DNA from: an uncultured Candidatus Cloacimonadota bacterium
GTDB taxonomy: Bacteria > Cloacimonadota > Cloacimonadia > Cloacimonadales > CAYQPF01
DNA: 36,014 nt
Reading direction: 5' to 3'
Assembly (NCBI GenBank): GCA_964419225.1
Contig: CAYQPF010000035.1
Coordinates: 1 to 36,014 of the forward strand
Below the pieces are notes generated by a model. The model saw only the letters and a program-made list of their open reading frames with translations, was not told where the DNA came from and searched no databases. Within the stretch, counting starts at the first letter, position 1. Every line of letters begins with the position of its first letter. A program made the position numbers and the translations under genes. This document shows positions 6,671-36,014 of the stretch, in pieces.

Positions 6671-6749
6671 GTAACCTCCGATATTTTTAGTAACATAAAG
6701 GTAACATTAGAGTATTAAAAATTAAGTCAAGCAGATAATCTTTTGGATA

Positions 6750-6777
6750 GTTAAGAGATAAGAGTTAAGAGATAAGA
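6750..6777. repeat. Perfect 2 x 14-bp tandem repeat 'gttaagagataaga' in the divergent intergenic region. It is followed at 6821-6865 by four copies of 'ctaaag' spaced about 11-12 bp apart.
   Basis: Read directly from the sequence. The region is purine-rich on the + strand and lies between the divergently oriented serpin and VOC genes. Confidence 0.6.
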
Positions 6778-7109
6778 CATGAGGATAATTTCCGTTGTTA
6801 TTAAACAGTAAAAACTAAGAGGAGCTAAAGGGATGCTAAAGAGAAGCTAAAGAGGAGTGTCTAAAGTTCGGAGTCATAATTTTGAGTAGTTTCATAGGAG
6901 ATAAGAACTTTTAATCAGGCATTGCATGATTGTTTAGTATAGATGAAACTCTATTATTCAAGAATTGAGACCAATTCGCGGAGGATTTCCAAACAAGAGT
7001 TCTCCACTGTGTGACTCTGAGATTTCCTCTGTGTAACTTTGTGATACTAAAAAATTAATATTTTTATTTACATAATTTACAATTTCTACAACCTTAGTTC
7101 GGAGGATTT

Positions 7110-10833: not shown

Positions 10834-10854
10834 TTAATGGTTAATAGTTAAGGG

Positions 10855-11118
10855 ACGCTTAATAGAACGCGGATGGCGCTGATCAGGCGGATGGTCGCAG
10901 ATCGGAGAGATATGTTAAAGACAGATATGTCAGGTAAAACTACCAAAAACTGAGTCTACAATTTTTAGGACTGACCGTAAGAGAAAGCATTTTTCAAATC
11001 GGCCCGGCATTTATGCGGAAATAAAAAAAGATGAAAACCTCTCTTTCTGTTTCGATCAATAATTTACAAATCCGCGATTAACTGCGTTTTCCGTGTTAAT
11101 CCGCGTTCTATTAAGCGT
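10855..11118. repeat. Perfect 20-bp inverted repeat 'acgcttaatagaacgcggat' / 'atccgcgttctattaagcgt' flanking 224 bp in a convergent intergenic region. It is a MITE-like or long-stem structured element.
   Basis: Arms at 10855-10874 and 11099-11118 are exact reverse complements. Nested imperfect 'gcggat'/'atccgc' sub-repeats lie just inside both arms. No ORF is inside. Confidence 0.6.
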
Positions 11119-11122
11119 CTCT

Positions 11123-15106: not shown

Positions 15107-15133
15107 AATTAACTCCCTACTTCTCACGGAAGA

Positions 15134-15159
15134 ATTATAAATAAACTACGTACTGTCAA
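15134..15159 (-). promoter_or_regulatory. Putative sigma70-like promoter for the cyclase-STAND gene. On the minus strand the -35 is TTGACA and the -10 is TATAAT.
   Basis: Both hexamers match consensus exactly, but the spacer is only 14 nt. The predicted TSS near 15127 leaves a 21-nt leader with an AGGGAG SD before the ATG at 15106. Confidence 0.35.
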
Positions 15160-15240
15160 GGAATATGTGATTTTTAAGTTAATTGTGAGTGGTATGACAT
15201 AGCATCGTAGGGACAGGGCATGCCCTTTCTCTACATTGGA

Positions 15241-17694: not shown

Positions 17695-18422
17695 TTTATC
17701 CTCAGCAAAATATAGTCGGTCGTTTTTTCAATTCTAAAATACTTGCAGGTTAGTTTATTATTGCCGGCTATTTTATCAAATTGATTCAGCCATTCACCGG
17801 TGGAAATCGCTTTATCTTTGTTTGTATCAGAAGTTTTTAGAGCTTTAGTAGTTCTATAAACAGTTTGTCTTAAATAATAAAGTTGATCATCAAGAGATGT
17901 GCTTTGCACATCAGAACTTTGGGAATTGATAACAACGAGATACTTACCTGAGGTAAAGTCTGTACAAGAATATTCCTGCAAAAATTCTTCAGGAAGAGGA
18001 GATTTTCCGGGTGCTACGATAAATATGATATTATTGAACGCCGGACTGATCTTAATAAAATTCAAAAGATAATCCAAAGTCAGAGTGGTTTTGTATTCTG
18101 TTGCCAAAATACTGGATTCTCCACCAGATTTTTTTTCCCAGGCTCCTGCTAAAACACCACAGAAGAAGGAACTATCTGTTAAAGACTTGGAAAAATCCAG
18201 ATATTGAGAGAAAACATTTTCCTTGAGATTAATCTGGACTGAACGTTGGGGTGTTTGCTGAAAAGCTCCGCTAAGTATTTGAAGCAGTTCATCCTTGTTC
18301 GAGTCGAACCCTTTTGCTTTGAATTGATCATTACCTTCAGAGCTATGTATTAGCAAACTATAGTTTAACCCATTAAGGCTAAAACTGAGCATAAGGCAAA
18401 TTAAAATAATTATGGATTTCAT
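17691..18422 (-). CDS. Secreted hypothetical protein
   Basis: ORF of 243 aa with an N-terminal signal peptide 'MKSIIILICLMLSFSL'. It is translationally coupled by ATGA overlaps on both sides within the MoxR-vWA operon. Confidence 0.45.
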   Translation of the reverse strand: MKSIIILICLMLSFSLNGLNYSLLIHSSEGNDQFKAKGFDSNKDELLQILSGAFQQTPQRSVQINLKENVFSQYLDFSKSLTDSSFFCGVLAGAWEKKSGGESSILATEYKTTLTLDYLLNFIKISPAFNNIIFIVAPGKSPLPEEFLQEYSCTDFTSGKYLVVINSQSSDVQSTSLDDQLYYLRQTVYRTTKALKTSDTNKDKAISTGEWLNQFDKIAGNNKLTCKYFRIEKTTDYILLRIK

Positions 18423-20155
18423 TTTTTCTTTCCTTTACCGGCAGGAACGGTATTGGTATTCTCAATTTCCGGAGTGGTTACCACCGGAGCTTCTGCTGCT
18501 TTCAAAGCAGTTTCCAGAATTTTAATTTGATTTAAAAGTTCAAAATAGTTTTTATAATTTTTGAATTGTTCCAGCATCTTACCCGATTCAGGATCAGTTT
18601 GATTCATTTGAGACTGTAGATTTTGATACTTCTGCAGAACAGGTGGAAATTTCTGGTACAGTTGATTAAGCGGATTTTTCAGCAGAGGAACAGCATTAAT
18701 CTTTTCAAAATAAATCATGTCAGGATACAACAAAGAAAGATCTTTCAGAGTGTTCGTTTTTGCTTTGAGCTCTTTATTGAATTTCGGCATTAAAAAGGTT
18801 GTTAAATATTGCTGACACAGATTAAGACTATCCGGTACAAAAAGAACATTTACCGGATTTGCACTCCCCGTAAAAATATTATCTAACTGCCCATATAGAA
18901 GACCAGGGCTGTCAACAGATCCATAGAATATGATATTTACCCCATTAAATGGCTTTTCATTAATGCTTCGTAAAAGATTATTTACGGTAAAGGCAGACCT
19001 GTCATTCTTCAAAACAGTAGCTGTTTCAGTGACAAAAAGATCTCCACAGATAATCAGATTCAGGGTGTAATCTAAATTTGTTTCCATCTTGGATATCCCG
19101 GACAAATAGGTCTCCAAGGTCGCAGGACTTTCATATGAGTAAAGAATATTGGCATTTGCCTTCTGTCCTATTCCAGTCCATTGATTGGAAAACAGATCAT
19201 AAAAGAAGTTTGCCTTTTCTTCATATGCTTTGTTACCGTTAAAAATATAAGTATAGTTATTAGTATCCTGCTTCAAATCCATCCAGTCCTGAGGATAGCC
19301 CTGAACAATATTCTGCAGATAATAATTCAAACTATCTTCTAATGCATAGAAATCATTGTTTTTGGCAAAAGAAGAGTAAAAAAGCGAAAACGTATCTGTT
19401 CTTACTATTTCATAAATATCTTTACAGGAAAAAATAAAGTTGTTCAATCCGGGTTTAAGAATCAGGTTTTTCTTGAAGATTTTTTCCTTTGTTAAAGGCA
19501 ATTTCTCATTATTAAGAATAACCTCCTTCAAGGAGTATTTATGATTCACAGTAAAAGTCAGTTCTGCTGTAGGGGGAGTAAAACTTAAGATACTCGAGTT
19601 GAAGGTAACTTTTGGAGTTGGAAGATTGTTTTTGAATTTATCAGGGAAGTCGGTCATTAGACATTCTTTAATCAGAGAAGACATTTTGGAATTGGTTTGC
19701 TGAGAAAAGAATTGATAGTAAGCAAACAACATTTTGTAAATATCCGGCGAACGTCGATCAATTTTATGGATCAGATTCTGATAATATTTATCCTGATATT
19801 TTGTAAGCGAAAGCAAAGTTAAAAGGGAATCTGATGGATTTATTAAATAGGCCTGTGACAGATAATTGTAGGCCAAATCACTCTTTTCACACTGAAAATA
19901 AATAACACCCTTTGCCTTTAAAAAAACCGGTTGAGGTACAACATTATCCTCAAAATTACTCAGCTCCTGACTTGCCATGACCGGCATAAAATTGGCCAGA
20001 TAACTCTCCAGCAATTCTATTCGCAAAGCTATACTCTTAGGATTATAAAAGACTTTCTGATACAAACTGTCTAAAGAAGTCGCACTATTTTCAGCAGTCA
20101 ATAAGGTTAAAACTGAAAACAGTATTAATAATAGAATTATCTTTTTCATACTCAA
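18419..20155 (-). CDS. Secreted hypothetical protein with an N-terminal TPR-like region
   Basis: ORF of 578 aa. Signal peptide 'MKKIILLLILFSVLTLLTA'. The C-terminus is Lys-rich. ATGA overlap with the MoxR stop. Confidence 0.5.
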   Translation of the reverse strand: MSMKKIILLLILFSVLTLLTAENSATSLDSLYQKVFYNPKSIALRIELLESYLANFMPVMASQELSNFEDNVVPQPVFLKAKGVIYFQCEKSDLAYNYLSQAYLINPSDSLLTLLSLTKYQDKYYQNLIHKIDRRSPDIYKMLFAYYQFFSQQTNSKMSSLIKECLMTDFPDKFKNNLPTPKVTFNSSILSFTPPTAELTFTVNHKYSLKEVILNNEKLPLTKEKIFKKNLILKPGLNNFIFSCKDIYEIVRTDTFSLFYSSFAKNNDFYALEDSLNYYLQNIVQGYPQDWMDLKQDTNNYTYIFNGNKAYEEKANFFYDLFSNQWTGIGQKANANILYSYESPATLETYLSGISKMETNLDYTLNLIICGDLFVTETATVLKNDRSAFTVNNLLRSINEKPFNGVNIIFYGSVDSPGLLYGQLDNIFTGSANPVNVLFVPDSLNLCQQYLTTFLMPKFNKELKAKTNTLKDLSLLYPDMIYFEKINAVPLLKNPLNQLYQKFPPVLQKYQNLQSQMNQTDPESGKMLEQFKNYKNYFELLNQIKILETALKAAEAPVVTTPEIENTNTVPAGKGKKK

Positions 20156-21144
20156 CCAAGGGTTTTTAGTATTTTTTGGACAATATCCTGAGATTTGTAT
20201 CCCTCTGCTTCTGCAGCAAAAGAGAGAAGCAGTCTGTGTTGCAGAACGATCTCAGCAGAGCTGATCACATCTTCAACCGATGGTGTAAGTCGATTATCCA
20301 TGGCAGCTTTGGCTTTGGCAGCCAGAACCAGGAATTGAGAAGCTCGAGGCCCGGCACCCCAGTTAACCATACTCTTAACAAAGTCCGGTGCTTCAGGATT
20401 TGAAGGGCGGGTTTTTCTTACCAATTTAACAATAAAATCAAGAACATGCTCACTCACAGGAATATTCCGGATTGATTCCTGAATTTTTACAATGTGGGCG
20501 GCATCTGTTATCTTTCTCAATTCTGTTTTTTCTGAACTTGTAGTTTTTTCAGCTATCATTTTCTCAGTATCATAAGAAGGATAATCAATATAAATCTTAA
20601 ACATAAATCTGTCTAACTGAGCTTCGGGTAAAGGGTATGTACCCTCCTGCTCGATTGGATTCTGGGTCGCTAATACTAAAAATGGTTGATCCAAATTATA
20701 TGTCTGATTTCCTGCTGTAACCTGATACTCCTGCATAGCCTGCAATAGTGCAGACTGCGTCTTGGGAGGTGTTCTGTTGATTTCATCTGCCAGAATAATA
20801 TTAGCAAAGACAGGACCCTTGATGTATTCAAAATACCGTTTACCATCAGATTTATCTTCAGCTAAAATATCTGTACCTGTAATATCAGATGGCATTAAAT
20901 CCGGGGTAAACTGAATTCTGCTAAACTTTAGATCCATTACTCGAGCTAAGGATGATACTAAAAGTGTCTTAGCCAAGCCAGGGACTCCTTCCAACAAACA
21001 ATGCCCGTTACAAAACAAGGCACAAAGGAAATCCTCTATTACTTTTTCCTGTCCGTAAACAGACTTATTTATTTCCGAAATTATCTTTTTCTTAGTATCC
21101 TGTACTGTTTCCAGCACTTTTACGAAATCAGCGTTACTTTTCAT
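20152..21144 (-). CDS. moxR: MoxR-family AAA+ ATPase
   Basis: Walker A reads 'GVPGLAKTLLVSSLARVM'. Walker B/sensor reads 'ILADEINRTPPKTQSALLQAMQE'. The ORF is 330 aa, typical MoxR size. Confidence 0.9.
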   Translation of the reverse strand: MKSNADFVKVLETVQDTKKKIISEINKSVYGQEKVIEDFLCALFCNGHCLLEGVPGLAKTLLVSSLARVMDLKFSRIQFTPDLMPSDITGTDILAEDKSDGKRYFEYIKGPVFANIILADEINRTPPKTQSALLQAMQEYQVTAGNQTYNLDQPFLVLATQNPIEQEGTYPLPEAQLDRFMFKIYIDYPSYDTEKMIAEKTTSSEKTELRKITDAAHIVKIQESIRNIPVSEHVLDFIVKLVRKTRPSNPEAPDFVKSMVNWGAGPRASQFLVLAAKAKAAMDNRLTPSVEDVISSAEIVLQHRLLLSFAAEAEGYKSQDIVQKILKTLG

Positions 21145-25034: not shown

Positions 25035-25820
25035 CTATAATCCAAATAATTTCTTAAATAATGATTTTTTTGCTTCCGGCTGCTTCTTAAAGCGTTCCGC
25101 TCCAAAATAATTTACTTTTTCGTTTTTCAGCATCTTCATGGGATTGATTTCGGAAAGTAATTTAGCAGTATGATCATTGGTTTCACTCCGAATAGCTTCT
25201 ACTGCATCAACATAACTATAATCCTGTGTATGACAGTGAGTATCAGAACCTAAAAAATGTGCATATCCGTTGTAGATCATTTCCCAGGCAGTATCCTGAA
25301 TCTTCTTGCCATAACCACCCAACAGGCTTCCGGTATTGATCTGCATATAAATATTCCGATGAATCAGATCTTCTACTGCATAGGGATTATTAATAAATTC
25401 TGTATATCTTTCAGGATGAGCCAAAATCGGTTTATAACCCTGTTTTACCAGAATATAATAAATATCGAGCAAACCGTTGGGAAAACCATTCATACTGGTT
25501 TCCATAAGAATATAATTTGTATTATTTAAGGTCAGGTTTTCCTTGATAACATCCAAGTGAATATCTTCACTAAGAAATATTTCTGCACCACGGTAAAGTT
25601 CAATATTTATATTCTCTCTTTGTACTGCATCTTTTAATATCTGAAATTTCACATTTTGAATTTCCGCTGTATTATCATAAAATCCCTTCATGTAATGGGG
25701 AGTCAAAATTACACCTTTAATTCCCTCCTCACTCATAAACTTCAAATAATCTAAAGATGTATCCAGATCCGGAGATCCGTCATCAACATCAAACATAATG
25801 TGAGAATGTATATCAATCAT
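25035..25820 (-). CDS. CpsB/CapC-type PHP-family protein-tyrosine phosphatase (capsular polysaccharide biosynthesis)
   Basis: Diagnostic N-terminus 'MIDIHSHIMFDVDDGSPDL'. Further His/Asp metal ligands are seen in 'LTPHYM', 'LAHPERY' and 'LGSDTH'. The ORF is 261 aa. Confidence 0.85.
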   Translation of the reverse strand: MIDIHSHIMFDVDDGSPDLDTSLDYLKFMSEEGIKGVILTPHYMKGFYDNTAEIQNVKFQILKDAVQRENINIELYRGAEIFLSEDIHLDVIKENLTLNNTNYILMETSMNGFPNGLLDIYYILVKQGYKPILAHPERYTEFINNPYAVEDLIHRNIYMQINTGSLLGGYGKKIQDTAWEMIYNGYAHFLGSDTHCHTQDYSYVDAVEAIRSETNDHTAKLLSEINPMKMLKNEKVNYFGAERFKKQPEAKKSLFKKLFGL

Positions 25821-26572
25821 ATGCCATCCTTACTAATTTGTATTGCCTGAGCAAATTCACTGATTAATGCTTTATCCGGAGTGTTCTCGAAAACAGTCCC
25901 AATCACCACAAAATCTGCTCCGGCTCTTGCTTTACAAGCCGCTTCCTCAGGTGTTTTTATGCCACCCCCGACAATAAGAGGGATTTCAATATTATTTTTT
26001 ACAACGGTAATCATTTCTTCAGGCACAGAGTTTTTAGCTCCGCTTCCGGCTTCCAAATAAACCATTCGCATGCCTAAATACTGCCCGGCTAAAGCATGCG
26101 TCACCGCAATATCAATTTTCTTTCTGGGTATGGGAATACTGTGACTCATGTACTGCACCGAAGTCAAACTGTTGGATTCGATCAACAAATAAGCAGTACC
26201 AATACTTTCCAGATTATACTTTTTAATCAAAGGAGCAGAACGAACCTGTTCTCCTACTAATAATTCCGGATTCCTGCTGCTCAGCATACTTAATAAGAGT
26301 ATTGCATCAGCATATGGAGAAACGAAATTAAACAATCCTGGGAAGATTATTAATGGTATTTTTACCTGCTTTTTTATTTCTCTTAAACACGATTCAAAAT
26401 TATCATGGAGCATCATACTACCACCTATGAGAAGTGCATCTGCCCCACTTTCTTCGCAATCCAAGGCAAAATCTATAGCAGTTCCCTCGCTATGCTTATC
26501 CGGATCGATAAGACAGAAAAACCCAGTTCTTTTCCGGGCAATTTCTAAGAGTTTCTCATATGTTTTTATCAT
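25817..26572 (-). CDS. PcrB/GGGP-synthase family (geranylgeranyl- or heptaprenyl-glyceryl phosphate synthase) TIM-barrel prenyltransferase
   Basis: The ORF is 251 aa with 'FFCLIDPDKHS', 'LLIGGSMM' and a C-terminal 'LIVGGGIKTPEEAACKARAGADFVVIGTVFE' phosphate-binding block. An ATGA overlap joins it to cpsB. Confidence 0.8.
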   Translation of the reverse strand: MIKTYEKLLEIARKRTGFFCLIDPDKHSEGTAIDFALDCEESGADALLIGGSMMLHDNFESCLREIKKQVKIPLIIFPGLFNFVSPYADAILLLSMLSSRNPELLVGEQVRSAPLIKKYNLESIGTAYLLIESNSLTSVQYMSHSIPIPRKKIDIAVTHALAGQYLGMRMVYLEAGSGAKNSVPEEMITVVKNNIEIPLIVGGGIKTPEEAACKARAGADFVVIGTVFENTPDKALISEFAQAIQISKDGI

Positions 26573-26573
26573 A

Positions 26574-27404
26574 TTATTTACCTATCCACATTATTATCAG
26601 GATGAAAAACATATTCAGTTTCATCAAATTAGAGATATAATTCAAATTTTTCTTGGTAACATTTCTGTTCAAAAATAAGTAAGAGATCAACAAAGGCAAA
26701 ATGGTAAAAATATTGAGCAAATTAAAAGTCAGCATCGATATCATTCCATGCCAAAATAGAGAAAAAACACCAATACCCATCGCTAATATCAGCGTAAATG
26801 TAATCGAAAAAGTCCAAGTCTTTCCCATTACAATTGGTATAGTTTTTGCCCCCTGACTCATATCACCTTCCACATCTTCCGTATCCTTGATGATTTCCCG
26901 GATCAATGTATATGTAAAAGCAATAAATGAAATTGCCAGCGCATAACTGACATTATCATTGGCTATTGCCCCGTAAAAGAATGTCGAAGCTGCAGAATAT
27001 GCTATCAACAAATTACCCAACAAAAATGTCTTTTTCAAATATCCTGCATAGACCACTAACAGCAATGTATTCACAACTGCAATTATGATACACCATTTAT
27101 GCCAGGTCAAAACACTCAGAAAAAAACCGGTAATCATCAGAATCCAGGCATACTTTAAAGCCGTACCTGGTGAGATTTTACCAGAAGGTAAAACCCTGTC
27201 TTTTCTGTTTATCTTATCGATTTCCAGATCATAATAATCATTAAGTACATAACCACCTGCTGCTATAAAAGTGGCAGCTAAAGCACTTAAAATTATGACC
27301 CTGATATCAAAAACAGTTGCCTTGATCATTGCCCCATACACTACACATAAAGCAGTAAAAAAGCAATTGAAAGGTCTGATTATCTGCAGAAATGCTTTTA
27401 TCAC
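26574..27404 (-). CDS. UbiA-family prenyltransferase, DGGGP-synthase-like (digeranylgeranylglyceryl phosphate synthase homologue)
   Basis: Eight or nine TM helices. Asp-rich motif 'NDYYDLEIDKINRKDR'. It sits immediately upstream of the PcrB/GGGPS gene, which is the archaeal ether-lipid gene order. Confidence 0.7.
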   Translation of the reverse strand: MIKAFLQIIRPFNCFFTALCVVYGAMIKATVFDIRVIILSALAATFIAAGGYVLNDYYDLEIDKINRKDRVLPSGKISPGTALKYAWILMITGFFLSVLTWHKWCIIIAVVNTLLLVVYAGYLKKTFLLGNLLIAYSAASTFFYGAIANDNVSYALAISFIAFTYTLIREIIKDTEDVEGDMSQGAKTIPIVMGKTWTFSITFTLILAMGIGVFSLFWHGMISMLTFNLLNIFTILPLLISYLFLNRNVTKKNLNYISNLMKLNMFFILIIMWIGK

Positions 27405-28292
27405 TTAAGGTAATCTGTCCTTGATCATGGCGACAAATTCAACCAGTATCTCATTATTATCCATATTCTTGATCATTTTATAGGAATCTTCCAGGAGCTT
27501 TTCTGCTGTCTTGCGTGCCTTATCCAAACCCAATAAGGAAGAATATGTTATCTTATTATTCCGATAATCTTCACCTGGTTCTCTGCCTAAATATTCAAAT
27601 TCACCGATTTCATCCAATATGTCATCTATAACCTGATAAGCTAAACCTAAATTCAATGCATAATTCCCAATTGTGATGGTTATATTATCTTCCGCATCCG
27701 CCATTATGCAGGCCAAATCTGTGGCTGCCTGAAGCAGTGCACCCGTCTTCTTCAAATGAACATATCTCAACACATTGATTCTGACATTCTTGTCCGTCGA
27801 TAAAATATCAACAGCCTGACCACCTATCATTCCCCGTGTTGATACTGCCCGGCACATGGTATTGATGCAGCGTACTGCTTTTTCAGGTTCCTGAACCAAG
27901 GTAAGCATCTCAAATGCTTTGGTGATTAATGCATCCCCGGCAAGTATTGCCGTTGCGGGATCAAACTTCTTGTGGCAGGTCGGCTGTCCTCTTCTCTCAT
28001 CTGAATTATCTACACTCGGTAAATCATCATGAATCAATGAAGCTGTATGGATCATCTCCAATGCACAACCAACAGGCAGAACAGGATTCAGGACATTAGC
28101 ATTCTTCTTGCCTTTCAACATCTCATAAACAGCAAAAAAAAGAATTGGTCTAAGCCTCTTCCCTTCAGAAAATACAGAATATCGCATAGCCTCAAAAAGA
28201 CTTGACGGATTCTCTTTTACCGGAGTCAGATAACTGTCCAGAGCGTCTTCCAATATTTTTTTCCTACTATCAAAGTATTTTTGGATTAACAA
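27405..28292 (-). CDS. Polyprenyl diphosphate synthase (GGPP/FPP synthase, trans-IPPS)
   Basis: FARM 'LIHDDLPSVDNSDERRG' and SARM 'YQVIDDILDE' are present. The ORF is 295 aa. Confidence 0.85.
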   Translation of the reverse strand: MLIQKYFDSRKKILEDALDSYLTPVKENPSSLFEAMRYSVFSEGKRLRPILFFAVYEMLKGKKNANVLNPVLPVGCALEMIHTASLIHDDLPSVDNSDERRGQPTCHKKFDPATAILAGDALITKAFEMLTLVQEPEKAVRCINTMCRAVSTRGMIGGQAVDILSTDKNVRINVLRYVHLKKTGALLQAATDLACIMADAEDNITITIGNYALNLGLAYQVIDDILDEIGEFEYLGREPGEDYRNNKITYSSLLGLDKARKTAEKLLEDSYKMIKNMDNNEILVEFVAMIKDRLP

Positions 28293-29335: not shown

Positions 29336-30414
29336 TTATCACTCTCTTTCAATAAATATTCTAAAATAAATTCCGCTGCCTTACCGTCCCCAAAGGCAGC
29401 ATTTTGTTCTGATGCTATCTCCTGGCAGGCTACAGCTTTTTTTATCTTTTCAGTATCTGCACCGCATATTATGTTCCAATTTCCGACTAAAGTTTCCACC
29501 CATTCTGTTTCATCTCGTAATGTTATGCAGGGTTTCTTTACAAAATAAGCTTCTTTCTGTAAACCACCGGAATCAGTCAGTACCTTAACACATCCATTCA
29601 ATAAAGCTAACATTTCCAAATATCCAACTGGATCAATCACTTTAATTGATTCAGACAGCTGAATCTTCTGCTCAGCAATATACTTTTTCGTCCTTGGATG
29701 TAATGGCAATATCACAGGAGCATCCAAAGTTCCCAACGCACCCAGAATACTCGAAAGTCTGGCCGGATGATCTGTGTTCTCCGCCCTGTGTAAAGTGGCA
29801 AGATAGTAGCTTTCAGGCAAATCATTAGTCTTATATAATTCCGGGTTACTCAGAATTTTATCCTGATAAAACAAAACCGAATCATACATTACATCACCGG
29901 ACAATACAGCATGCTCCAGCAGTCCTTCTGTTGTCAAATGCTGCATAGCTGTCTGAGTGGGTGCAAACAAAATATCACTGATCTTATCGGTAACAATCCG
30001 GTTGATCTCCTCGGGCATATTCCTGTTAAAACTTCTTAGACCGGCTTCTACATGTGCGACTTTCATATGCAGTTTCACAGCTGCCAATGAACCAGCTACC
30101 GTAGAATTGGTATCACCATAAATTACTACCCAATCAGGGTTTTCCTGCATGAGTACTTTTTCTATTTTGTCCAGCATTAATCCGGTCTGTTCTCCATGTG
30201 AACCTGATCCAACTTCCAGATTATAATCAGGCTTGGGGATATCCAGCTGTTCAAAAAATATGTCAGACATGTTCTGATCATAATGCTGCCCGGTATGTAC
30301 CAACACTTCCTGAATCTCAGGATGCCTTCCAATCACCCGGCTCAGGGTCGCAGCCTTGATAAACTGTGGTCTGGCTCCAATAATAGTCAGTATCTTTAAT
30401 CTATTTTTTTCCAT
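29332..30414 (-). CDS. wecB: UDP-N-acetylglucosamine 2-epimerase (non-hydrolysing)
   Basis: 'ILTIIGARPQFIKAATLSRVI', 'VHTGQHYDQNMS' and 'DSGGLQKEA' are present. The ORF is 360 aa. Confidence 0.9.
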   Translation of the reverse strand: MEKNRLKILTIIGARPQFIKAATLSRVIGRHPEIQEVLVHTGQHYDQNMSDIFFEQLDIPKPDYNLEVGSGSHGEQTGLMLDKIEKVLMQENPDWVVIYGDTNSTVAGSLAAVKLHMKVAHVEAGLRSFNRNMPEEINRIVTDKISDILFAPTQTAMQHLTTEGLLEHAVLSGDVMYDSVLFYQDKILSNPELYKTNDLPESYYLATLHRAENTDHPARLSSILGALGTLDAPVILPLHPRTKKYIAEQKIQLSESIKVIDPVGYLEMLALLNGCVKVLTDSGGLQKEAYFVKKPCITLRDETEWVETLVGNWNIICGADTEKIKKAVACQEIASEQNAAFGDGKAAEFILEYLLKESDK

Positions 30415-30511
30415 GCAATAACAAACCTATCTTTTATCTTATCTGTCAAGTATCTTCTTTGCAACAGCAGTATGCTTGCACAAATACTAACAGTACACAC
30501 GACGACTACTG

Positions 30512-30546
30512 TTAAAAAGGAGTCCCTATCCAAGGGATAAGGACTC
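30512..30546 (-). terminator. Putative intrinsic terminator downstream of the flotillin-like gene
   Basis: On the minus strand the hairpin 'gagtccttatcc-ctt-ggatagggactc' has an 11-12 bp stem with a 3-5 nt loop. It is followed by 'cttttt'. Confidence 0.5.
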
Positions 30547-30585
30547 ATATCTATAGTAATGTTTGAAAGATAAACGGAATTAAAC

Positions 30586-33132
30586 TTATTTTACTTCCGC
30601 ATCTCCACCTTGTACATTCTTCGGTGTTATCTGTTTAACTAAAAATGCTGATAATAATTCCATTACCCCATTTCCTTCACTTCCACCACTCTGGACAAGA
30701 AAATCAGGAGTTATCTTCACATTACTGCTGGATAATAACTTCGTTACTTCTATGGCTACAAGTCCTTCCGCACCTACAGCATTCTGTTGAAGCTTATATG
30801 CAGCTGCAGTAGCTTCACCTTTTGCCAGAATTGCAGTACCCTCTGCCTTACCTACAAAGGTTATACCATCAGACTCACCCTTCTTCTGCAACCTCACAGC
30901 TTCTGAACTTCCTTCCGCCTCAGTAATAACCTGTGCTTTTATGTTCTGTGCTATCTCTACATTGATGGCAGACTGGACAAGATCTCCCTGCCTGTCTGCT
31001 TCAGCCTTGGTCTTCTCAGTCGCGATACGGCTCTGCTGAGCTTTCTGCTGTTCAACATACATCGTCTGTTCCTGCTGAGCAATAATCTTCTGCGTCTGTG
31101 TATTCATCAGATCCTGAGGTAACTTAATCTGACAAATTAAAACTGAAACCAGCTCTACATGGTATTTTTCCAGTTCACGGCGGGCCCTTTCTTCAGCTTT
31201 TTCCTGTTCCTCATGTCTGTTTTGCATGAAGTTCATTGCTGATGTCGAGGATGCCTGATTCCGGAAACTGGAATCTATCATCGGATGTATAACATGATCC
31301 ACCAAATTCTCGATCGATCCAATCTTTGCCACCATATACGGTGCCTGATCAGGTCTGATTCTGATCACAACTTTTACCGATACACTTATCTCAAAACCAT
31401 CCCTGGAAATTACCTTCAACGGATCAAATTTTGTCGCTTCCTCTTCATCCCAATCTATTGTGATATTGGTTGTATTGACCACATACACTATGAAAGCCCG
31501 ACGGTTCAAATAATATATACCAGGTCCTACAACTTCACTCTGAATACCACGGAATCCTTTGGGAACTACATATCGTTCAATCCCTGCTTTTAGTCTGTCT
31601 TCAAAAATATCTGGTTTCACCGCAGGAACAGTCTCTCCGGCACTCTCATTCAAATCAGTCAGGGTAACAATTCTTTCTTCTTTTTGCTGTTCTGCTTCTG
31701 ATACGATCAGCGAAGCTTTGGGTTCTTCCCCCACATTAGAGATAACCACTGCAACTTCACCTCTCTGAATTGTGGTTACATCATCCTGATCTACAGTAAA
31801 CATTAAAGGATTTATATAATATGTACCTGGCTTAAGCACATCAAGCTGAGGTCCTCTCTGACCACCTTTATCCAAAAATGCCGTTATGTTCTGATAATTA
31901 TTATGCCCTTCTATCGGCTTCGCTACATACTCATTCTCAGGTAAGGGCTCACCATCTCTAGCCGTAACTAACCCAATCTTTGATGCCTGAATTACAGTTG
32001 CATCTTTGATAATTACATTGAATAAGTTAGTATTAACACGGTAAGTACCAGGTAATAAAATCTGGCATTGCGGTCCTTTTTCTCCGTTATTTCTCAAAAA
32101 CTCCTGCCCGTTTTCAAAATTAGAATGCCCCGGCACAACCTTGGCCAACAACCTTCCTTTGGTTATCTGAGCTCCGTCATTGGCTGTAATGACACCAACC
32201 TGACCCTGACCAACCACAATCGCATTTATCGGTTTAACGTTGAATAATTTAGTATTGATCCGGTAATTTCCCGGAGGCAATACTGCGATTTGCGGTCCCT
32301 TCTGCCCACCATTGTCCAGGAACATCTTGCCATCCTGGAAAGAATTACATTCTGCATCCTCTGCAAAAATCCTTCCTGCCGGTACCGGATTACCGTCTAT
32401 CGATTCCACAAGACCAATTTTACCTTCACCGATTGACGTTACTTCCACAACTGTTACGATAAATAGTCTCGTATTGATACGATAATTACCGGGAGGTAAA
32501 ATTCCTATTTGCGGTCCTTTCTGACCTTTGTTTTCAAAGAATTTCCGTCCGTCTTGAAACAGATTACAGTCCACATGCTTGGCAAAAATCCTTCCCGGAG
32601 GTACTGATTCACCGTCTATCGACTCTACCAGCCCTATCCTGCCTTCCCCGATTGTTATTACAGAATGAATTGTGACCTGAAACATTCTGGTATTTATTCT
32701 ATAAGTTCCAGGAGGTAAGATATCAACCTGCGGTCCTTGCTGACCGTTATTGTTCAAGAAGGCTTCACCATCCTGAAAATAATTCGATTCCACAGGTTCA
32801 GCAAAAATGCGACCCTTTGGTACCGGAATACCGGTTCTGGATTCTACAAGACCGATCTGATTATCTCCGATGATCACAAAATTAACTTTCTCCGACACAA
32901 AAATGTAAGGAACTACAAAGTGTAAACCGGGTCCAAGTGTCTTTACCTGAACACCAACTTCGCCACTCATAGCAAAAACACGGCCTTCAGGCATACTCTT
33001 ACCAAACCAGCGACGCTCCAATATCCGGATATTATTACCGCCTACCACTATAAAAGATTTGATAATGGTTATCAGCAGTATCAAGGCTCCCAGTCCGATC
33101 AGAATGTTCGTAAATGTCATCAATTCTAACAT
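30586..33132 (-). CDS. Flotillin-like SPFH/band-7 membrane protein, carrying an N-terminal array of five ~75-aa tandem repeats upstream of the SPFH and 'flotillin' coiled-coil (EA-rich) regions
   Basis: N-terminal TM helix. The repeat unit 'IGLVES.DG.PVP.GRIFA....CN.FQDG..F..N.GQKGPQ...LPPG.YRINT.LF.V' occurs 5 times. It resembles the start of YqiK-type SPFH domains. The C-terminal EA/Q-rich coiled coil is typical of flotillins. SD AGAGAGG lies upstream. Confidence 0.7.
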   Translation of the reverse strand: MLELMTFTNILIGLGALILLITIIKSFIVVGGNNIRILERRWFGKSMPEGRVFAMSGEVGVQVKTLGPGLHFVVPYIFVSEKVNFVIIGDNQIGLVESRTGIPVPKGRIFAEPVESNYFQDGEAFLNNNGQQGPQVDILPPGTYRINTRMFQVTIHSVITIGEGRIGLVESIDGESVPPGRIFAKHVDCNLFQDGRKFFENKGQKGPQIGILPPGNYRINTRLFIVTVVEVTSIGEGKIGLVESIDGNPVPAGRIFAEDAECNSFQDGKMFLDNGGQKGPQIAVLPPGNYRINTKLFNVKPINAIVVGQGQVGVITANDGAQITKGRLLAKVVPGHSNFENGQEFLRNNGEKGPQCQILLPGTYRVNTNLFNVIIKDATVIQASKIGLVTARDGEPLPENEYVAKPIEGHNNYQNITAFLDKGGQRGPQLDVLKPGTYYINPLMFTVDQDDVTTIQRGEVAVVISNVGEEPKASLIVSEAEQQKEERIVTLTDLNESAGETVPAVKPDIFEDRLKAGIERYVVPKGFRGIQSEVVGPGIYYLNRRAFIVYVVNTTNITIDWDEEEATKFDPLKVISRDGFEISVSVKVVIRIRPDQAPYMVAKIGSIENLVDHVIHPMIDSSFRNQASSTSAMNFMQNRHEEQEKAEERARRELEKYHVELVSVLICQIKLPQDLMNTQTQKIIAQQEQTMYVEQQKAQQSRIATEKTKAEADRQGDLVQSAINVEIAQNIKAQVITEAEGSSEAVRLQKKGESDGITFVGKAEGTAILAKGEATAAAYKLQQNAVGAEGLVAIEVTKLLSSSNVKITPDFLVQSGGSEGNGVMELLSAFLVKQITPKNVQGGDAEVK

Positions 33133-33669
33133 AATACCTCTCTAAATGAACTTAATTTATAGTTTCAATAGTACAATCATTGATTTATGTCAAGAAAATT
33201 GATAATTTCTTTTTGCGTGCTGGCAGAAAATTGAAAAGTGTCACAAGATTTGCAAATTTGGTCACCTCTAAAGTTGGGACTACAAGATTCCTTGTGGACC
33301 AATACAAAATAATCCATAACTTTTATTAAACTTCTACATATTTTGAATCTCTTTTTTTACTAACTTACTCTCCTGTTTTAATTTATTAACACTGTCAAGG
33401 TATAATATATTACTTTAATTTATTATATAGCAACATGTTAATTCCCCTCTATCAAGAGGGGTGGCAACGAAGTTGACGGGGTGTGTAAATCCAAAACCCT
33501 GTTTGCTATCATTAAACTTATACCATTTTTCAGATTATTCTCTTTAAACTTTGAACTAATTTCACAAACAGAATCAAGTAGTGTCCAAAATATTAACCTC
33601 CATTCGAAAAATACTCTCAGAAAAACTACTCCGTAAATAGAGTTTTCCCCAACTAATAACTCAATTCTG

Positions 33670-34092
33670 CTAATTTATAACTAACATGTGGGAGAGTTCA
33701 ATCGCTCTTGCACCAGTCTGCTTTGCCCATTTAGTAGTCAGCATCTGGTTAGCAGCTTTTTCAAACTCTCCAGATTTGACAAAACTAAGAGTGGTCTTAA
33801 ACTGCAATAGTCCTTTAATTCCAAGGTTGAAACACATATCCAGAAGCACCAGTTTACGGTTTTCTGAGAGGTTGTTGTAGATATCAGGAATGCTGGAAAT
33901 AAGCTCCAACTCACATCGCAAAATATCATTTTGAAGCAGTTCTTTGGCTTCCTGCTTTGAAATCCCTCAGTCTTCAAGATTACGACTGACTCCGATGGTC
34001 AGTTTACCTGATGTGCAGCGATACGGCTTAAGTCTCAAACCTTCATGCCTGATGAGTTGCTCTTTGACTCTAACTAATAAGCTCTGTTCCAT
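33670..34092 (-). pseudogene. T4-type (GH24) phage lysozyme gene interrupted by one in-frame TGA at 33967-33969
   Basis: The minus-strand frame reads 'MEQSLLVRVKEQLIRHEGLRLKPYRCTSGKLTIGVSRNLED*GISKQEAKELL...NRKLVLLDMCFNLG...KWAKQTGARAIEL'. This aligns along its whole length to T4 lysozyme ('[25 protein letters not shown]', 'RRCALINMVFQMG', 'SRWYNQTPNRAKRV'). GGAG lies 7 nt upstream of the ATG. Confidence 0.7.
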
Positions 34093-34322
34093 CTATACTC
34101 CAAATGTTATATTCAGAGTGATAGGAACCTGCTGCTGGTAATTTTATCAAATCGGCTTGCCTATGGATGCCACAGAAATTATCATTGACAGATGGTGTTT
34201 GCTCAGATTAATGTTAGCTAATTAAGAGCTTAAATTTGAGTCTATATTTTACGATCAAGCATGATCATATAGATATCAAATGAGTAGGAGTGGGAGGATG
34301 CATGATAAAGCTGTAGCGATGA

Positions 34323-34514
34323 TATCTATACCGCAGCTTGGTACAATGGGCTAAGCCAGCCAATGAACTATGTATATTTGATATGCACGACAACGTATGG
34401 GAGTGGAATTGGGACATTCATGGTAGCTATCCCAGCACTCAGGGTAACCAGCATAGTGCCCTGAGCAGGTCACTTAGTGCAATTCAAACGATCTATGAAA
34501 TATGCTGCAAATGA
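34323..34514 (+). pseudogene. Remnant (C-terminal fragment) of an FGE-sulfatase/SUMF1-domain gene
   Basis: A 63-codon open frame reads '...AKPANELCIFDMHDNVWEWNWDIHGSYPSTQGN...'. It matches the 'LGLYDMSGNMEEWCWDWHGKF' block of the 17..2212 protein and the canonical FGE 'YDMxGNVWEW' signature. There is no start codon and no upstream domain. Confidence 0.5.
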
Positions 34515-34570
34515 TCCAAAAAAAAGAATTGAGACTTGAGTTACGTACCTAAGTCAGAAAGGTTGGGTAG

Positions 34571-35614
34571 ATGTTAAATATTATTCGCATTACTCTTAAG
34601 AATCATCCTAAATTAAAAGATATAGACATATTGGGTGAAGATTTAGCTAAATCTCTTGATGCCTCAAAAGAAAATGCTGAACTTCTTGATCTTATATGTG
34701 ATTGTATGTACCATAGCGTAAGGCATTTTTTGGAAACTCCCTTTGGTGCAAGTACCTTCGAACTAACTGTCCATTTTATTGATGCCTATGGAAGAGAGTT
34801 AATAAGAACGTATCGGGATTATCAATATACACAAAGTACACTACCAGACATTCGAAATATGCATAAGGCAGATACAGATCAAGTGATCGATAGATTATTT
34901 GTTATTATTGTTGATAAAATTTTCCAGTTGTACTATCGACATTATGTCATTCCTGTTTACGAGGTAACTGATTTCGAAGGTGATCACTTCGCAGCTTCAA
35001 GTTTTATAATTAATCATAATAATAAAAATTATCTACTTACAGCAAAGCATGTTTACTTCGATATGGATAAAGAACAACCTGTTTTGCTATCTGATAGGTC
35101 TTATTGTTTTGGATGTAAAAGAGAGGCTATAGATATCTCCAAATCTATATATACAAAAGTGCATTTACCAGATTTTATTATTATTCCTATCGATAACCAA
35201 CTAACAAGAGAGATTATAGGTGATAATTTTCAAATAATCCCCGATAATCTCATTGATAAGTCAAAGTCTGAGACAAAAGGCCCTTTGATTTGTCACGGTT
35301 TTCCATATTCAAGGAATAAAAAACATTGGACACCAAGGCAAGACGTTTATATTCTAGGCACTTATGTGAAGTTTGATGAATGTAGTTTTGGTTTGACTTA
35401 TGATATAGAAAATACTAAACGTATGAATGGAACTATTGGAGCAGGTGTATCAACTCCTGGTATGAGCGGTTGTCCAATTTGGGAATTGTCCCTACTAAAT
35501 CTGATTACTAAATTTTCGCTAAAAGGTTTGTTTACAGGTTATTACAAAGAATTAAAAAAGAATAGGGGTGAGTACATCTATAAAGCCATTGAATATATTG
35601 ATAATCAGGTTTAA
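34571..35614 (+). CDS. Intracellular trypsin-like (S1/chymotrypsin-fold) serine peptidase with an uncharacterised ~130-aa N-terminal domain
   Basis: The ORF is 347 aa with no signal peptide. Catalytic-triad contexts are 'NYLLTAKHV' (His), 'LPDFIIIPID' (Asp) and 'GVSTPGMSGCPIWE' (GxSGxP Ser). The region is more AT-rich than the window's core genes. Confidence 0.6.
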   Translation: MLNIIRITLKNHPKLKDIDILGEDLAKSLDASKENAELLDLICDCMYHSVRHFLETPFGASTFELTVHFIDAYGRELIRTYRDYQYTQSTLPDIRNMHKADTDQVIDRLFVIIVDKIFQLYYRHYVIPVYEVTDFEGDHFAASSFIINHNNKNYLLTAKHVYFDMDKEQPVLLSDRSYCFGCKREAIDISKSIYTKVHLPDFIIIPIDNQLTREIIGDNFQIIPDNLIDKSKSETKGPLICHGFPYSRNKKHWTPRQDVYILGTYVKFDECSFGLTYDIENTKRMNGTIGAGVSTPGMSGCPIWELSLLNLITKFSLKGLFTGYYKELKKNRGEYIYKAIEYIDNQV

Positions 35615-35671
35615 AGAAATCTTCAATTCATTCGCATGAACTAAGTAAGTTCATAAACTTATCACAATAGC

Positions 35672-35950
35672 TCAATCAATATAATCTATGAATTGCACCT
35701 GAGCATCGTTTAATCCCAGCCTGAGACATCGGGAAGTGTAAGACTTGGTCTCTTTCATTACTTCTGCTGAGAACTCATCTCCAAGCTGATTTGATACTAT
35801 TTCCATTAGTTTCCGGAGATGCTCACTTGATACCTTTTCTGACTTCGGCATATCTGATAGCATTTTAATGGTTATTCTGGCAGATTCTCTGTTATTAAGA
35901 TGTAACAAGTTAAGATCTTTTGACCCGGATTGTGCAGTAGAGGTTTGCAA
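35672..35950 (-). CDS. Hypothetical small protein (92 aa), convergent with the trypsin-like protease gene
   Basis: ORF only. No recognisable motif. Confidence 0.25.
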   Translation of the reverse strand: MQTSTAQSGSKDLNLLHLNNRESARITIKMLSDMPKSEKVSSEHLRKLMEIVSNQLGDEFSAEVMKETKSYTSRCLRLGLNDAQVQFIDYID

Positions 35951-36014
35951 ACTGGGTCAAAGATCGTGAAGAATGAAGGTTTGCAATCGAACGAGGTTAT
36001 ATAATAAATATATG

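What the first reader, a model, noticed from the sequence alone, without database searches (positions are those of the whole stretch)
33133..36014. Lower-GC accessory/decayed island at the right end. It holds an ORF-free 540 bp, a lysozyme pseudogene, an FGE-gene fragment and an intracellular trypsin-like protease.
After the flotillin-like gene the character of the sequence changes. There is a 540-bp region with no ORF longer than 60 codons, then two gene remnants, then a visibly more AT-rich gene (34571-35614) and a small orphan ORF. This is the signature of horizontally acquired material, such as a prophage remnant or defence island, undergoing decay. It is where an undescribed system is most likely to sit.
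Basis: partly seen in the sequence, partly recalled or inferred. Interest (0 to 1): 0.65.

Follow-up and report, generated by a model that had tools for sequence, protein, structure and literature searches.

The report
Decayed prophage fragment carrying orphan protease
The right end of this contig is the broken remains of a prophage's accessory-gene slot: the flanking phage genes are dead, but one rare cytoplasmic trypsin-like protease gene is still intact. This is an ordinary kind of genomic fossil, and the protease is a modestly interesting candidate phage-defence gene.

Summary
The listed features are all present, but the "lower-GC" framing is weak. The region is 34.9% GC against 37.3% for the window. 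The apparent drop comes mostly from the GC-rich flotillin gene next door.

The prophage-remnant reading is strongly supported by synteny. In an uncultured phage family (257 IMG/VR contigs) the order is terminase, MuF-like head protein, a hypervariable slot, then a GH24 lysozyme heading the next operon. The slot holds restriction-modification (R-M) and other defence genes.

The window keeps only this junction:
- the lysozyme has one nonsense codon (probably CGA to TGA);
- the operon downstream of the lysozyme is gone;
- the slot holds a shredded FGE-sulfatase scrap and an intact 347-aa gene.

That gene encodes a cytoplasmic two-domain protein. Its 115-aa N-domain occurs in only one other known protein. 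Its C-terminal domain has a chymotrypsin fold with His160-Asp201-Ser299.

All four of its closest relatives sit in the same slot, beside the lysozyme-side boundary. They are 27-42% identical to it, while the lysozymes are 63-89% identical. The protease domain resembles protease modules of Lamassu, Hachiman, Avs and retron defence systems, but no partner gene is present. A defence function is inferred, not shown.

The parts
33133..33669 (.). AT-rich, ORF-free spacer between the flotillin start codon and the lysozyme stop codon. It presumably holds the flotillin promoter and Shine-Dalgarno sequence (GAGAGG, 5 nt before the ATG). It is also the breakpoint where the phage late operon is missing.
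   Evidence: No ORF of 60 codons or more. GC 0.302. No Rfam, tRNA or terminator hit. RNA fold z = -0.53. No similarity to the phage 152-aa gene or to any fetched locus or GenBank phage. Similarity to the phage loci stops at about 33685, next to the lysozyme stop.
33444..33461 (.). An 18-nt hairpin (CCCCTC-TATCAA-GAGGGG). The two independent Logan contigs of run SRR13723396 abut immediately after it. It may mark the edge of the acquired DNA.
   Evidence: L002 = window 30323-33463 and L001 = window 33462-35792, both exact substrings. That this is the boundary is inference only.
33670..34092 (-). GH24 phage lysozyme pseudogene of 140 codons. It has a single in-frame TGA at codon 42 (33967-33969).
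   Evidence: PF00959, 54.3 bits; PHROG endolysin. It is 62-69% identical to lysozymes of 257 IMG/VR contigs. It is 66% identical to the lysozymes next to the protease relatives P0008 and P0009. Homologues have R, S or C at the stop position, so CGA to TGA is the likely change. TGA is a normal stop in 12 of 29 window genes.
34093..34191 (.). Conserved phage backbone upstream of the lysozyme. It ends in a boundary motif at 34148-34191 (CAAATC..GGATGC..TTGACAG; relatives carry two GGATGC half-sites 10 nt apart and an invariant TTGACA). Beyond the motif all relatives diverge into variable cargo. It is probably a bidirectional regulatory region.
   Evidence: Alignment of 10 elements. blastn similarity to phage loci extends to about 34190. 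Logan contigs L061 and L062 begin at this motif. A regulatory function is inferred.
34283..34514 (+). Heavily decayed fragment of an FGE-sulfatase-domain gene. It is 5'-truncated, with at least three in-frame stops and at least one frameshift or deletion.
   Evidence: Three-frame translations. PF03781, 21.1 bits, below the cut-off, profile positions 170-195 of 255. It is only 46% identical over 26 aa to the FGE domain of the window's first gene, so it is not a recent duplicate. This fragment is absent from the same interval in L061, L062, L063 and L156.
34571..35614 (+). Intact gene for a 347-aa cytoplasmic two-domain protein. The N-terminal alpha/beta domain (about 1-115) is shared with only one other known protein. 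The C-terminal chymotrypsin-fold serine protease domain (about 125-345) has His160, Asp201 and Ser299 (GMSGCP).
35672..35950 (-). 5' remnant (92 codons) of a phage MuF-like head-morphogenesis gene. The MuF domain itself (residues about 129-288 of the 291-aa homologue) is deleted.
   Evidence: It is 50-53% identical to residues 24-89 of the 291-aa protein of L082, L089 and L097 (E 1e-20). That protein is PF04233 Phage_Mu_F (33.5 bits against 29.6) and matches PHROG head-morphogenesis families. The same MuF gene closes the cargo slot in L061 and L063.

Best explanation
Window 33.46/33.67-36.0 kb is a decaying fragment of a prophage from an uncultured family.

Family backbone: terminase, a 201-aa gene, a MuF-like head protein, a variable cargo slot, then a GH24 lysozyme followed by a 152-aa gene, a 162-aa gene, portal and prohead protease/capsid. 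In intact relatives the slot carries R-M and other anti-phage genes. These are mostly transcribed away from the lysozyme, starting at a conserved boundary region.

Shown in the window:
- only the slot and the stumps of its two flanking genes survive;
- MuF is cut after about codon 86;
- the lysozyme is inactivated by one nonsense codon;
- the late operon after the lysozyme is deleted and replaced by 537 bp of non-coding DNA abutting a chromosomal flotillin gene;
- the slot contains a dead scrap of an FGE-sulfatase gene and one intact gene, a cytoplasmic 347-aa protein with a private N-terminal domain and a catalytically complete chymotrypsin-fold serine protease domain.

Inferred:
- the protease gene is kept because it is useful to the host;
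- it most likely acts as a lysogen-expressed anti-phage (superinfection-exclusion or abortive-infection type) protease;
- the N-domain would sense or gate activity, and the active protease would cleave a host or phage target;
- this is by analogy with the trypsin-like protease modules of Lamassu, Hachiman, Avs and retron/DRT systems, which activate effectors by cleavage.

I put the prophage-remnant anatomy at about 0.85-0.9. I put the defence role of the protease at about 0.35.
For: Anatomy and synteny:
- Lysozyme family in 257 viral contigs.
- MuF homologue upstream of the lysozyme in the same orientation in L082, L089 and L097.
- MuF also closes the cargo in L061 and L063.
- The 152-aa gene follows the lysozyme in 78 of 78 loci but not in the window.
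- Similarity to phages is confined to 33685-34190 and 35693-35890.

Hotspot:
- More than 110 gene clusters in 80 loci, almost all divergent from the lysozyme.
- Contents include type I, II and III R-M, HKD+Snf2 and GajB-like helicase genes.

Decay:
- One TGA in the lysozyme, and TGA is a normal stop in this contig.
- MuF truncated.
- FGE scrap.

Protease:
- Intact, with open-frame chance 3e-13.
- Triad invariant, and fold confirmed.
- All four closest relatives (P0002, P0007, P0008, P0009) sit at the lysozyme-side edge of the same slot. Three of them are next to R-M or methyltransferase genes.
- The proteases are only 27-42% identical while the adjacent lysozymes are 63-89% identical.
- 15 of 25 family members match the protease-type LmuA profile, and others match retron-XI RT-protease, HamA and Avs2 profiles.
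- These are the protease-fused defence proteins described in PMC12799240.
Against: - No integrase, att repeat or tRNA is visible, and the contig ends at 36014. The outer limit and the state of the rest of the prophage are therefore unknown.
- No close relative of the source genome was found, so no empty-site comparison was possible.
- The flotillin/remnant junction is spanned only by the deposited contig. Two Logan contigs of the same run abut at 33462/33463.
- Composition does not set the region apart convincingly.
- For the defence role: no experiment exists, and no partner (LmuB, MBL nuclease, STAND NTPase) is adjacent.
- The window's own protein misses Pfam Trypsin_2 and hits LmuA only at E 6e-6 over the protease part.
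- The family is absent from PHROGs, GenBank phages, PLSDB and IMG/VR. Its biology rests on five loci.
Confidence: 0.75

Rival explanations
1. The protease is a phage-benefit gene rather than a host-defence gene. It could be a regulator of lysis or induction, or an anti-defence protease that degrades host immunity proteins. Its fixed position next to the lysozyme would then reflect shared regulation with the late operon.
For: All five members of the close subfamily lie directly beside the conserved lysozyme-upstream region and are divergently transcribed from it. The subfamily was found only at this position in this phage family. The fast divergence relative to the lysozyme fits an arms-race gene on either side.
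Against: 79 of the 80 phage loci sampled carry other genes, mostly R-M or defence genes, at that position. Of these, 78 lack any protease, so it is not part of the phage's essential programme. In the window it is the only gene kept intact while the phage genes around it decayed. That pattern fits host benefit. Its sequence neighbours are defence-system protease modules.
Confidence: 0.2
2. The element is not decayed. An essentially intact prophage continues beyond the contig end, and the apparent truncations are assembly artefacts at repeats shared between prophage copies.
For: The window is a whole contig that ends 64 nt beyond the MuF start. Logan contigs of the same run break at 33462 and at 35792, inside the MuF remnant. 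That would be expected if other copies of the phage exist in the sample.
Against: The lesions are internal to the contig, and an independent Logan contig reproduces them exactly. This includes the lysozyme TGA and the protease/MuF' junction at 35614-35672, which lie inside L001. The 152-aa gene that overlaps the lysozyme stop in 78 of 78 relatives is missing, and 208 nt of unrelated sequence follow within the same Logan contig.
Confidence: 0.07
3. The region is ordinary chromosomal DNA. A long promoter region for the flotillin gene is followed by a few unrelated small genes, with no mobile-element history.
For: GC and tetranucleotide usage are within the range of the rest of the contig. There is no integrase, tRNA or direct repeat. 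Another long AT-rich intergenic region exists at 6671-7109.
Against: Three separate pieces (MuF', the conserved lysozyme-upstream region and the lysozyme) match one phage family in the same order and orientation.
Confidence: 0.03

Closest known systems
Prophage and satellite defence hotspots (for example the variable cargo loci of P2-like phages and P4-like satellites; from my own knowledge of that literature, not checked here)
   Same: A fixed position in a conserved phage backbone, bounded by conserved genes, carries interchangeable anti-phage genes. Here these are type I, II and III R-M, HKD+Snf2 and UvrD-like genes.
   Different: The phage family (uncultured) and the position (between a MuF-like head gene and a GH24 lysozyme heading the next operon) are different. 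In the window the surrounding phage is degraded to stumps.
Trypsin-like protease modules of Lamassu (LmuA), Hachiman (HamA), Avs and retron/DRT systems, which activate an MBL pro-nuclease (Tuck et al. 2025, PMC12799240)
   Same: Cytoplasmic chymotrypsin-fold protease with a His-Asp-Ser triad. There is profile-level similarity: LmuA PDLC03855 at E 6e-6 for the window protein and down to 6e-17 for family members, and some members hit RT-Protease_XI, HamA1 and Avs2. The defence-island context is shared.
   Different: In those systems the protease is the N-terminal fusion of a large sensor/effector protein and an MBL nuclease gene sits immediately upstream. Here the protease is C-terminal to a small private domain. 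It is not fused to any sensor, and no MBL, SMC-like or STAND gene is adjacent.
Lit protease of the E. coli e14 cryptic prophage (from my own knowledge)
   Same: A protease gene retained in a defective prophage, acting as an abortive-infection factor. This is the model for how the window's gene could work.
   Different: Lit is a zinc metalloprotease with a known trigger (T4 Gol peptide) and target (EF-Tu). There is no sequence or fold relationship, and nothing is known about the trigger or target here.
T4-type (GH24) phage endolysins, PF00959
   Same: Clear family match, with the catalytic Glu in the conserved HEG motif. There is up to 56% identity to lysozymes of cultured Marinobacter and Pseudoalteromonas phages.
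   Different: The residue aligned by eye with T4 lysozyme Asp20 is Cys in the window and the four relatives read (PYRC motif). This is direct reading plus memory of T4 lysozyme, not a test. The window copy carries a nonsense codon.

Membership tests
GH24 phage lysozyme (PF00959) | Profile match above Pfam's gathering score | tested here: met
   54.3 bits against a cut-off of 22.3, residues 15-128. PHROG endolysin phrog_7, E 2e-19.
GH24 phage lysozyme (PF00959) | Uninterrupted reading frame, so a functional gene | tested here: not met
   In-frame TGA at codon 42 (33967-33969). TGA ends 12 of 29 genes in the contig, so it is not recoded. The same stop is present in the independent Logan contig L001.
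GH24 phage lysozyme (PF00959) | Catalytic Glu and Asp equivalent to T4 lysozyme E11 and D20 | tested here: inconclusive
   The Glu is present (RHEGLRLKPY). The position aligned by eye with D20 is Cys in the window, L063, L067, L097 and L156. The alignment to T4 lysozyme is from memory and was not computed.
Phage Mu F-like head morphogenesis protein (PF04233) | Presence of the Mu F domain | tested here: not met
   The window ORF (92 aa) has no PF04233 hit. It aligns only to residues 24-89 of the 291-aa homologue, whose Mu F domain lies at 129-288. It is therefore a 5' remnant, not a member.
Chymotrypsin-fold (clan PA) serine peptidase | Double beta-barrel fold | tested here: met
Chymotrypsin-fold (clan PA) serine peptidase | His, Asp and Ser triad in that order, with a GxSGxP motif | tested here: met
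   H160, D201, S299 and G297/G300 are invariant in 25 aligned family members.
Chymotrypsin-fold (clan PA) serine peptidase | Match to a curated Pfam trypsin model | tested here: not met
   The window protein has no Pfam hit at E<=0.01. 16 of 25 relatives hit Trypsin_2 PF13365, with a best E of 1.2e-6.
Lamassu (protease-type LmuA) | Full-length LmuA architecture: effector domain plus the conserved C-terminal LmuA region | tested here: not met
   The match covers only profile positions 17-157 of 425 in PDLC03855, and only the protease part of the protein (E 6e-6).
Lamassu (protease-type LmuA) | Adjacent SMC-like LmuB gene | tested here: not met
   No such gene lies in 33.1-36.0 kb. No LmuB gene appears among the called genes around P0002, P0007, P0008 and P0009. 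The contig ends at 36014, so more distant genes cannot be excluded.
Nuclease-protease pairs of Hachiman, Avs, Lamassu and DRT (PMC12799240) | MBL-fold pro-nuclease gene immediately upstream of the protease | tested here: not met
   Upstream is a dead FGE-sulfatase scrap. In L061, L062, L063 and L156 the protease is the first gene after the lysozyme boundary.
Nuclease-protease pairs of Hachiman, Avs, Lamassu and DRT (PMC12799240) | [quoted passage not shown] | tested here: not met
   The protease is C-terminal, preceded by a 115-aa private domain, and the protein ends about 5 residues after the fold.
FGE-sulfatase domain (PF03781) | Profile match above the gathering score over the domain | tested here: not met
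   21.1 bits against 23.3, covering 26 of 255 profile positions. The frame is broken by stops and shifts.
Integrated prophage or genomic island | Integrase, att repeats or a tRNA target at the border | tested here: not met
   No tRNA or tmRNA in the window. No flanking direct repeats. No integrase among the annotated ORFs. The right border lies beyond the contig.
Integrated prophage or genomic island | Gene order shared with bona fide phage genomes | tested here: met
   The order MuF, opposite-strand cargo, conserved boundary region, lysozyme is the same as in L097, L089, L082, L063 and L061. The relatives carry terminase, portal and prohead protease/capsid genes.
Integrated prophage or genomic island | Empty site in a closely related genome | not testable with these tools
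   The one genome-contig scan found flotillin relatives of at most 60% identity with no shared neighbours. Exact-sequence look-ups find only this contig and one Logan run.

The most novel reading that the evidence does not exclude
The 347-aa protein and its four close relatives would be a previously undescribed single-gene, prophage-borne immunity or lysis-control module. It would be a stand-alone cytoplasmic trypsin-like protease, in two cases gated by a private N-terminal domain. It has been resident at the lysozyme-side edge of this phage family's cargo slot long enough to diverge to 27% identity. It would act without the MBL nuclease, SMC or STAND partners that accompany all related defence proteases described so far. 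It could cleave a phage or host target directly. It could instead control the neighbouring R-M systems or the late (lysozyme-first) operon.
Probability: 0.25. Interest if true: 0.6.

Novelty: new member of a known kind. Interest (0 to 1): 0.35.

Why it matters
As a genome feature this is ordinary: a prophage fossil. Three things make it useful.

First, it pins down a defence-gene hotspot in a widespread uncultured phage family. The slot lies between a MuF-like head gene and a lysozyme and has a sharply conserved boundary motif. It can be mined systematically for new anti-phage genes.

Second, it exposes a very rare family: 49 relatives among 1.84 billion representative proteins. These are small cytoplasmic trypsin-fold proteases related to the protease modules recently shown to activate effectors in Hachiman and Avs, with homologous nuclease-protease pairs also found in Lamassu and DRT. 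Here the protease stands alone. If it is shown to protect against phage, it would extend proteolytic immune signalling to a minimal one-gene format.

Third, the window shows selective retention. The only gene kept intact in the wreck is the cargo protease. That is the pattern expected for domesticated prophage genes.

Tried and rejected
- Rfam gathering scan of the window and an E-value scan of 33.0-36.0 kb gave nothing except a chance snoRNA hit (SNORD44, 28.5 bits against 40).
- The tRNA/tmRNA scan found none.
- The promoter/terminator scan gave counts no higher than shuffles and no terminators.
- The RNA fold of the 537-nt spacer was unremarkable (z = -0.53).
- I searched for a close relative or empty site through the flotillin gene. 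Identity was at most 60%, in Bacteroidales and other MAGs, with no shared neighbours.
- Exact-sequence look-ups to extend the contig found only short Logan contigs of one run.
- The first AF2 model, built from a 2-sequence alignment, was useless (pLDDT 39.5). It was replaced by the 25-sequence model.
- The afdb50 fold library was unavailable.
- A pattern scan of IMG/VR for the protease found no relative. The 25-sequence alignment was too diverse to make patterns.
- The metagenome scan gave only 7 loci, most of them short.
- I tested whether the FGE scrap is a copy of the window's own FGE-PEGA gene. It is not (46% over 26 aa).
- I tested whether the spacer hides a remnant of the phage 152-aa gene. 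No similarity was found.
- I tested whether the protease N-domain has a paralogue ('adaptor' pairing) in the window's STAND/TPR or other proteins. None was found.
- I tested whether TGA might be recoded. It is not.
- I guessed the host from IMG taxon 642555115 and the digester-like metagenome ids. I dropped this as unverifiable, and the phage loci have 45% GC on average against 37% here.
Full report
**Observation**

The window is 36,014 nt and is the whole deposited contig. The collection reports a longest contig of 36014 for its proteins.

All the listed features are present:
- An ORF-free interval at 33133-33669.
- A GH24 lysozyme gene at 33670-34092(-). It has a single in-frame TGA at 33967-33969.
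- A shredded FGE-sulfatase fragment at about 34283-34514(+).
- An intact 347-codon gene at 34571-35614(+).
- A 92-codon ORF at 35672-35950(-).

The compositional claim is weak.
- The region is 34.9% GC against 37.3% for the contig.
- Other 3-kb windows are equally low.
- The flotillin gene next door is the compositional outlier: GC 42.4% and the largest tetranucleotide distance.
- Only the 347-codon gene (GC3 0.233, the lowest of 29 genes) and the spacer (30.2%) are AT-rich.
- A comparable AT-rich intergenic region of 439 bp exists at 6671-7109.

**What the pieces are**

The lysozyme belongs to a family found on 257 IMG/VR viral contigs at 62-69% identity.

In those contigs it is the first gene of an operon: lysozyme, a 152-aa gene, a 162-aa gene, a gene of about 140 aa, portal, then prohead protease/capsid. 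The 152-aa gene follows the lysozyme in 78 of the 78 loci that have enough sequence. The window has no trace of it.

The region upstream of the lysozyme in the 80 fetched loci is hypervariable.
- Its ORFs fall into more than 110 clusters, almost all on the strand opposite to the lysozyme.
- It holds type I, type II and type III R-M systems, an HKD+Snf2 protein and UvrD/GajB-like helicases.
- Where the flank reaches far enough (L082, L089, L097), the variable region is closed by a 291-aa Phage_Mu_F protein, preceded by a 201-aa gene and the large terminase.

The window's 92-codon 'orphan' ORF is 50-53% identical to residues 24-89 of that MuF protein and then stops. The MuF domain proper is missing.

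Read on the minus strand, the window's right end is therefore: MuF stump, cargo on the opposite strand, conserved lysozyme-upstream region, lysozyme, break. This matches the phage order and orientation.

Nucleotide similarity to the phage loci is confined to 33685-34190. The MuF protein matches only 35693-35890.

**The boundary**

About 100 nt upstream of the lysozyme are conserved in all the relatives compared. The conserved stretch ends in a sharp motif at window 34148-34191. In relatives this is ACAAATCAGGATGCnTAAGGATGCGACAGA...TTGACA, with two GGATGC half-sites one helical turn apart and an invariant TTGACA. Beyond the motif the sequences are unrelated.

Two Logan contigs that carry relatives of the protease start exactly at this motif. 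I read it as the regulatory region and recombination boundary of the slot. This is inference.

**Decay**

- The lysozyme stop replaces a residue that is R, S or C in homologues. CGA to TGA is the simplest change.
- TGA terminates 12 of the 29 genes in the contig, so recoding is excluded.
- The FGE scrap has several stops and at least one frameshift or deletion, and it lacks the N-terminal half of the domain. It is not a recent copy of the contig's own FGE-PEGA gene. It is absent from the same interval in the four relatives.
- A deletion running from just after the protease gene into MuF must have removed the MuF C-terminus and probably further cargo. In the relatives, R-M or methyltransferase genes lie between the protease and MuF.

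**The intact gene**

A 347-codon open frame in DNA of this composition has a chance probability of 3e-13.

The protein has no hydrophobic segment.

HMMER against 1.84 billion representative proteins finds only 49 relatives at E<=1e-3. Residues 1-115 are shared with a single protein, P0002, at 42% identity. Residues about 115-345 match a small family of stand-alone proteins of about 250 aa.

His160, Asp201, Ser299 and the GxSG motif are invariant in the 25 sequences aligned.

The window protein misses all Pfam models, while 16 of 25 relatives hit Trypsin_2.

Against PADLOC it matches the protease part of one LmuA model (E 6e-6). Of its 25 aligned family members, 15 match that model (down to 6e-17), and a few match retron-XI RT-protease, HamA and Avs2 models.

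These are the protease-fused defence proteins of Tuck et al. 2025 (PMC12799240). In those systems the protease, fused N-terminally to the defence enzyme, activates an MBL pro-nuclease encoded immediately upstream.

None of the defining features of those systems is met here. There is no MBL gene, no LmuB and no fusion to a sensor. The protease is also C-terminal rather than N-terminal.

**Context of relatives**

The four closest relatives all occupy the same place.
- P0008: lysozyme(-), protease(+), then a convergent type I R-M, HigB and M78 genes, and MuF at the far end.
- P0009: the 152-aa gene(-), lysozyme(-), protease(+).
- P0002: boundary motif, protease, two methyltransferases, three unknown genes, then the MuF end.
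- P0007: boundary motif, protease, then a convergent N6 methyltransferase.

The proteases are 27-42% identical to one another, while the adjacent lysozymes are 63-89% identical. This is either fast evolution or cassette exchange. Both are typical of conflict genes.

The family is absent from PHROGs, GenBank phages, PLSDB and IMG/VR. More distant members sit in other contexts, such as next to McrBC or toxin-antitoxin genes.

**Mechanism**

Shown:
- a prophage cargo slot with dead flanks;
- a catalytically complete cytoplasmic serine protease as the sole intact gene.

Inferred:
- the gene is maintained for the host's benefit;
- it works as an infection-triggered protease of the superinfection-exclusion or abortive-infection type;
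- the private N-domain would be the sensor or gate.

I put this at roughly 0.35. A phage-benefit role (lysis or induction control, or anti-defence) is the main rival at about 0.2. The target is unknown in either case.

**Limits**

- No integrase, att site or tRNA was found.
- No related genome was available for an empty-site test.
- The source organism was not identified.
- The junction between the flotillin side and the remnant side (33462/33463, just after an 18-nt hairpin) is spanned only by the deposited contig. The two Logan contigs of run SRR13723396 abut there. This could mark the true edge of the acquired DNA or population heterogeneity.

**Verdict**

The interpretation as a decaying prophage or defence island is supported by synteny rather than by composition.

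The feature is a new member of a well-known kind. The stand-alone protease is the one element worth an experiment.

Noticed in passing
window 25817-28292 (-): Three adjacent genes: PcrB/GGGP-synthase-like (PF01884), a UbiA-family prenyltransferase (PF01040) and a polyprenyl synthetase (PF00348). This looks like the archaeal-type ether-lipid gene set reported for FCB-group bacteria, including Cloacimonetes (PMC7852524; I saw only the title and abstract). It may hint at the source phylum.
   Followed up: partly
window 34148-34191, and L061 1-48, L062 start, L063, L067, L069, L072, L079, L097, L115, L156: A sharply conserved motif of about 45 nt lies at the edge of the phage cargo slot. It has two GGATGC half-sites 10 nt apart and an invariant TTGACA. 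Sequence identity collapses immediately beyond it. It is a candidate operator/promoter and recombination boundary.
   Followed up: partly
window 33444-33463: The two Logan contigs from run SRR13723396 (L002 = 30323-33463, L001 = 33462-35792) abut with a 2-nt overlap right after the hairpin CCCCTCTATCAAGAGGGG. The second contig ends inside the MuF remnant. This may be a graph branch point: an island edge, or strain or copy heterogeneity.
   Followed up: partly
window 10843-10874 and 11099-11130: 32-nt inverted repeats (88% complementary) bracket 224 nt and fill the intergenic region between the CCA-adding-enzyme-like gene and the TPR-NTPase gene. The arrangement is MITE-like.
   Followed up: no
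window 5516-6670 (-): A full-length bacterial serpin (PF00079, E 9e-108) lies on the same contig as the orphan trypsin-like protease, 28 kb away. No link between the two was tested.
   Followed up: no
window 30586-33132 (-): The flotillin-like protein (848 aa) has an N-terminal hydrophobic segment and five tandem repeats of about 60 aa (GLVES.DG.PVP.GRIFA...GQKGPQ...LPPG.YRINT) before its Band_7 domain. Its best relatives are only about 60% identical, in Bacteroidales MAGs, with no conserved neighbours. It is also the most GC-rich gene of the contig.
   Followed up: partly
window 11123-21144 (-): A 1334-aa TPR/AAA_16 (STAND-like) NTPase with a weak cyclase-like N-terminal hit is followed by a cluster comprising a protein with a weak VWA hit, two proteins with no Pfam match, and a MoxR ATPase that also matches the bpMoxR model of MoxR-vWA-beta-propeller ternary systems. 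The contig's first gene encodes a PEGA+FGE-sulfatase protein.
   Followed up: no
L069 and L070, 3841-5406 (-): In two phage relatives the cargo slot holds a 521-aa protein. Its N-terminus resembles the protease domain of retron type XI RT-protease (PADLOC E 8e-8) and weakly matches the protease family profile. It is followed by 440-aa and 568-aa ORFs; the 440-aa one has no PADLOC match. This may be another protease-based cargo.
   Followed up: no
L152 38-7048: A distant protease relative (245 aa) is preceded by a 136-aa protein with a weak HNH_5 hit. It is followed by a 748-aa protein with no family match and then by McrB-like and McrC genes. This could be a different protease-containing defence locus.
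   Followed up: partly
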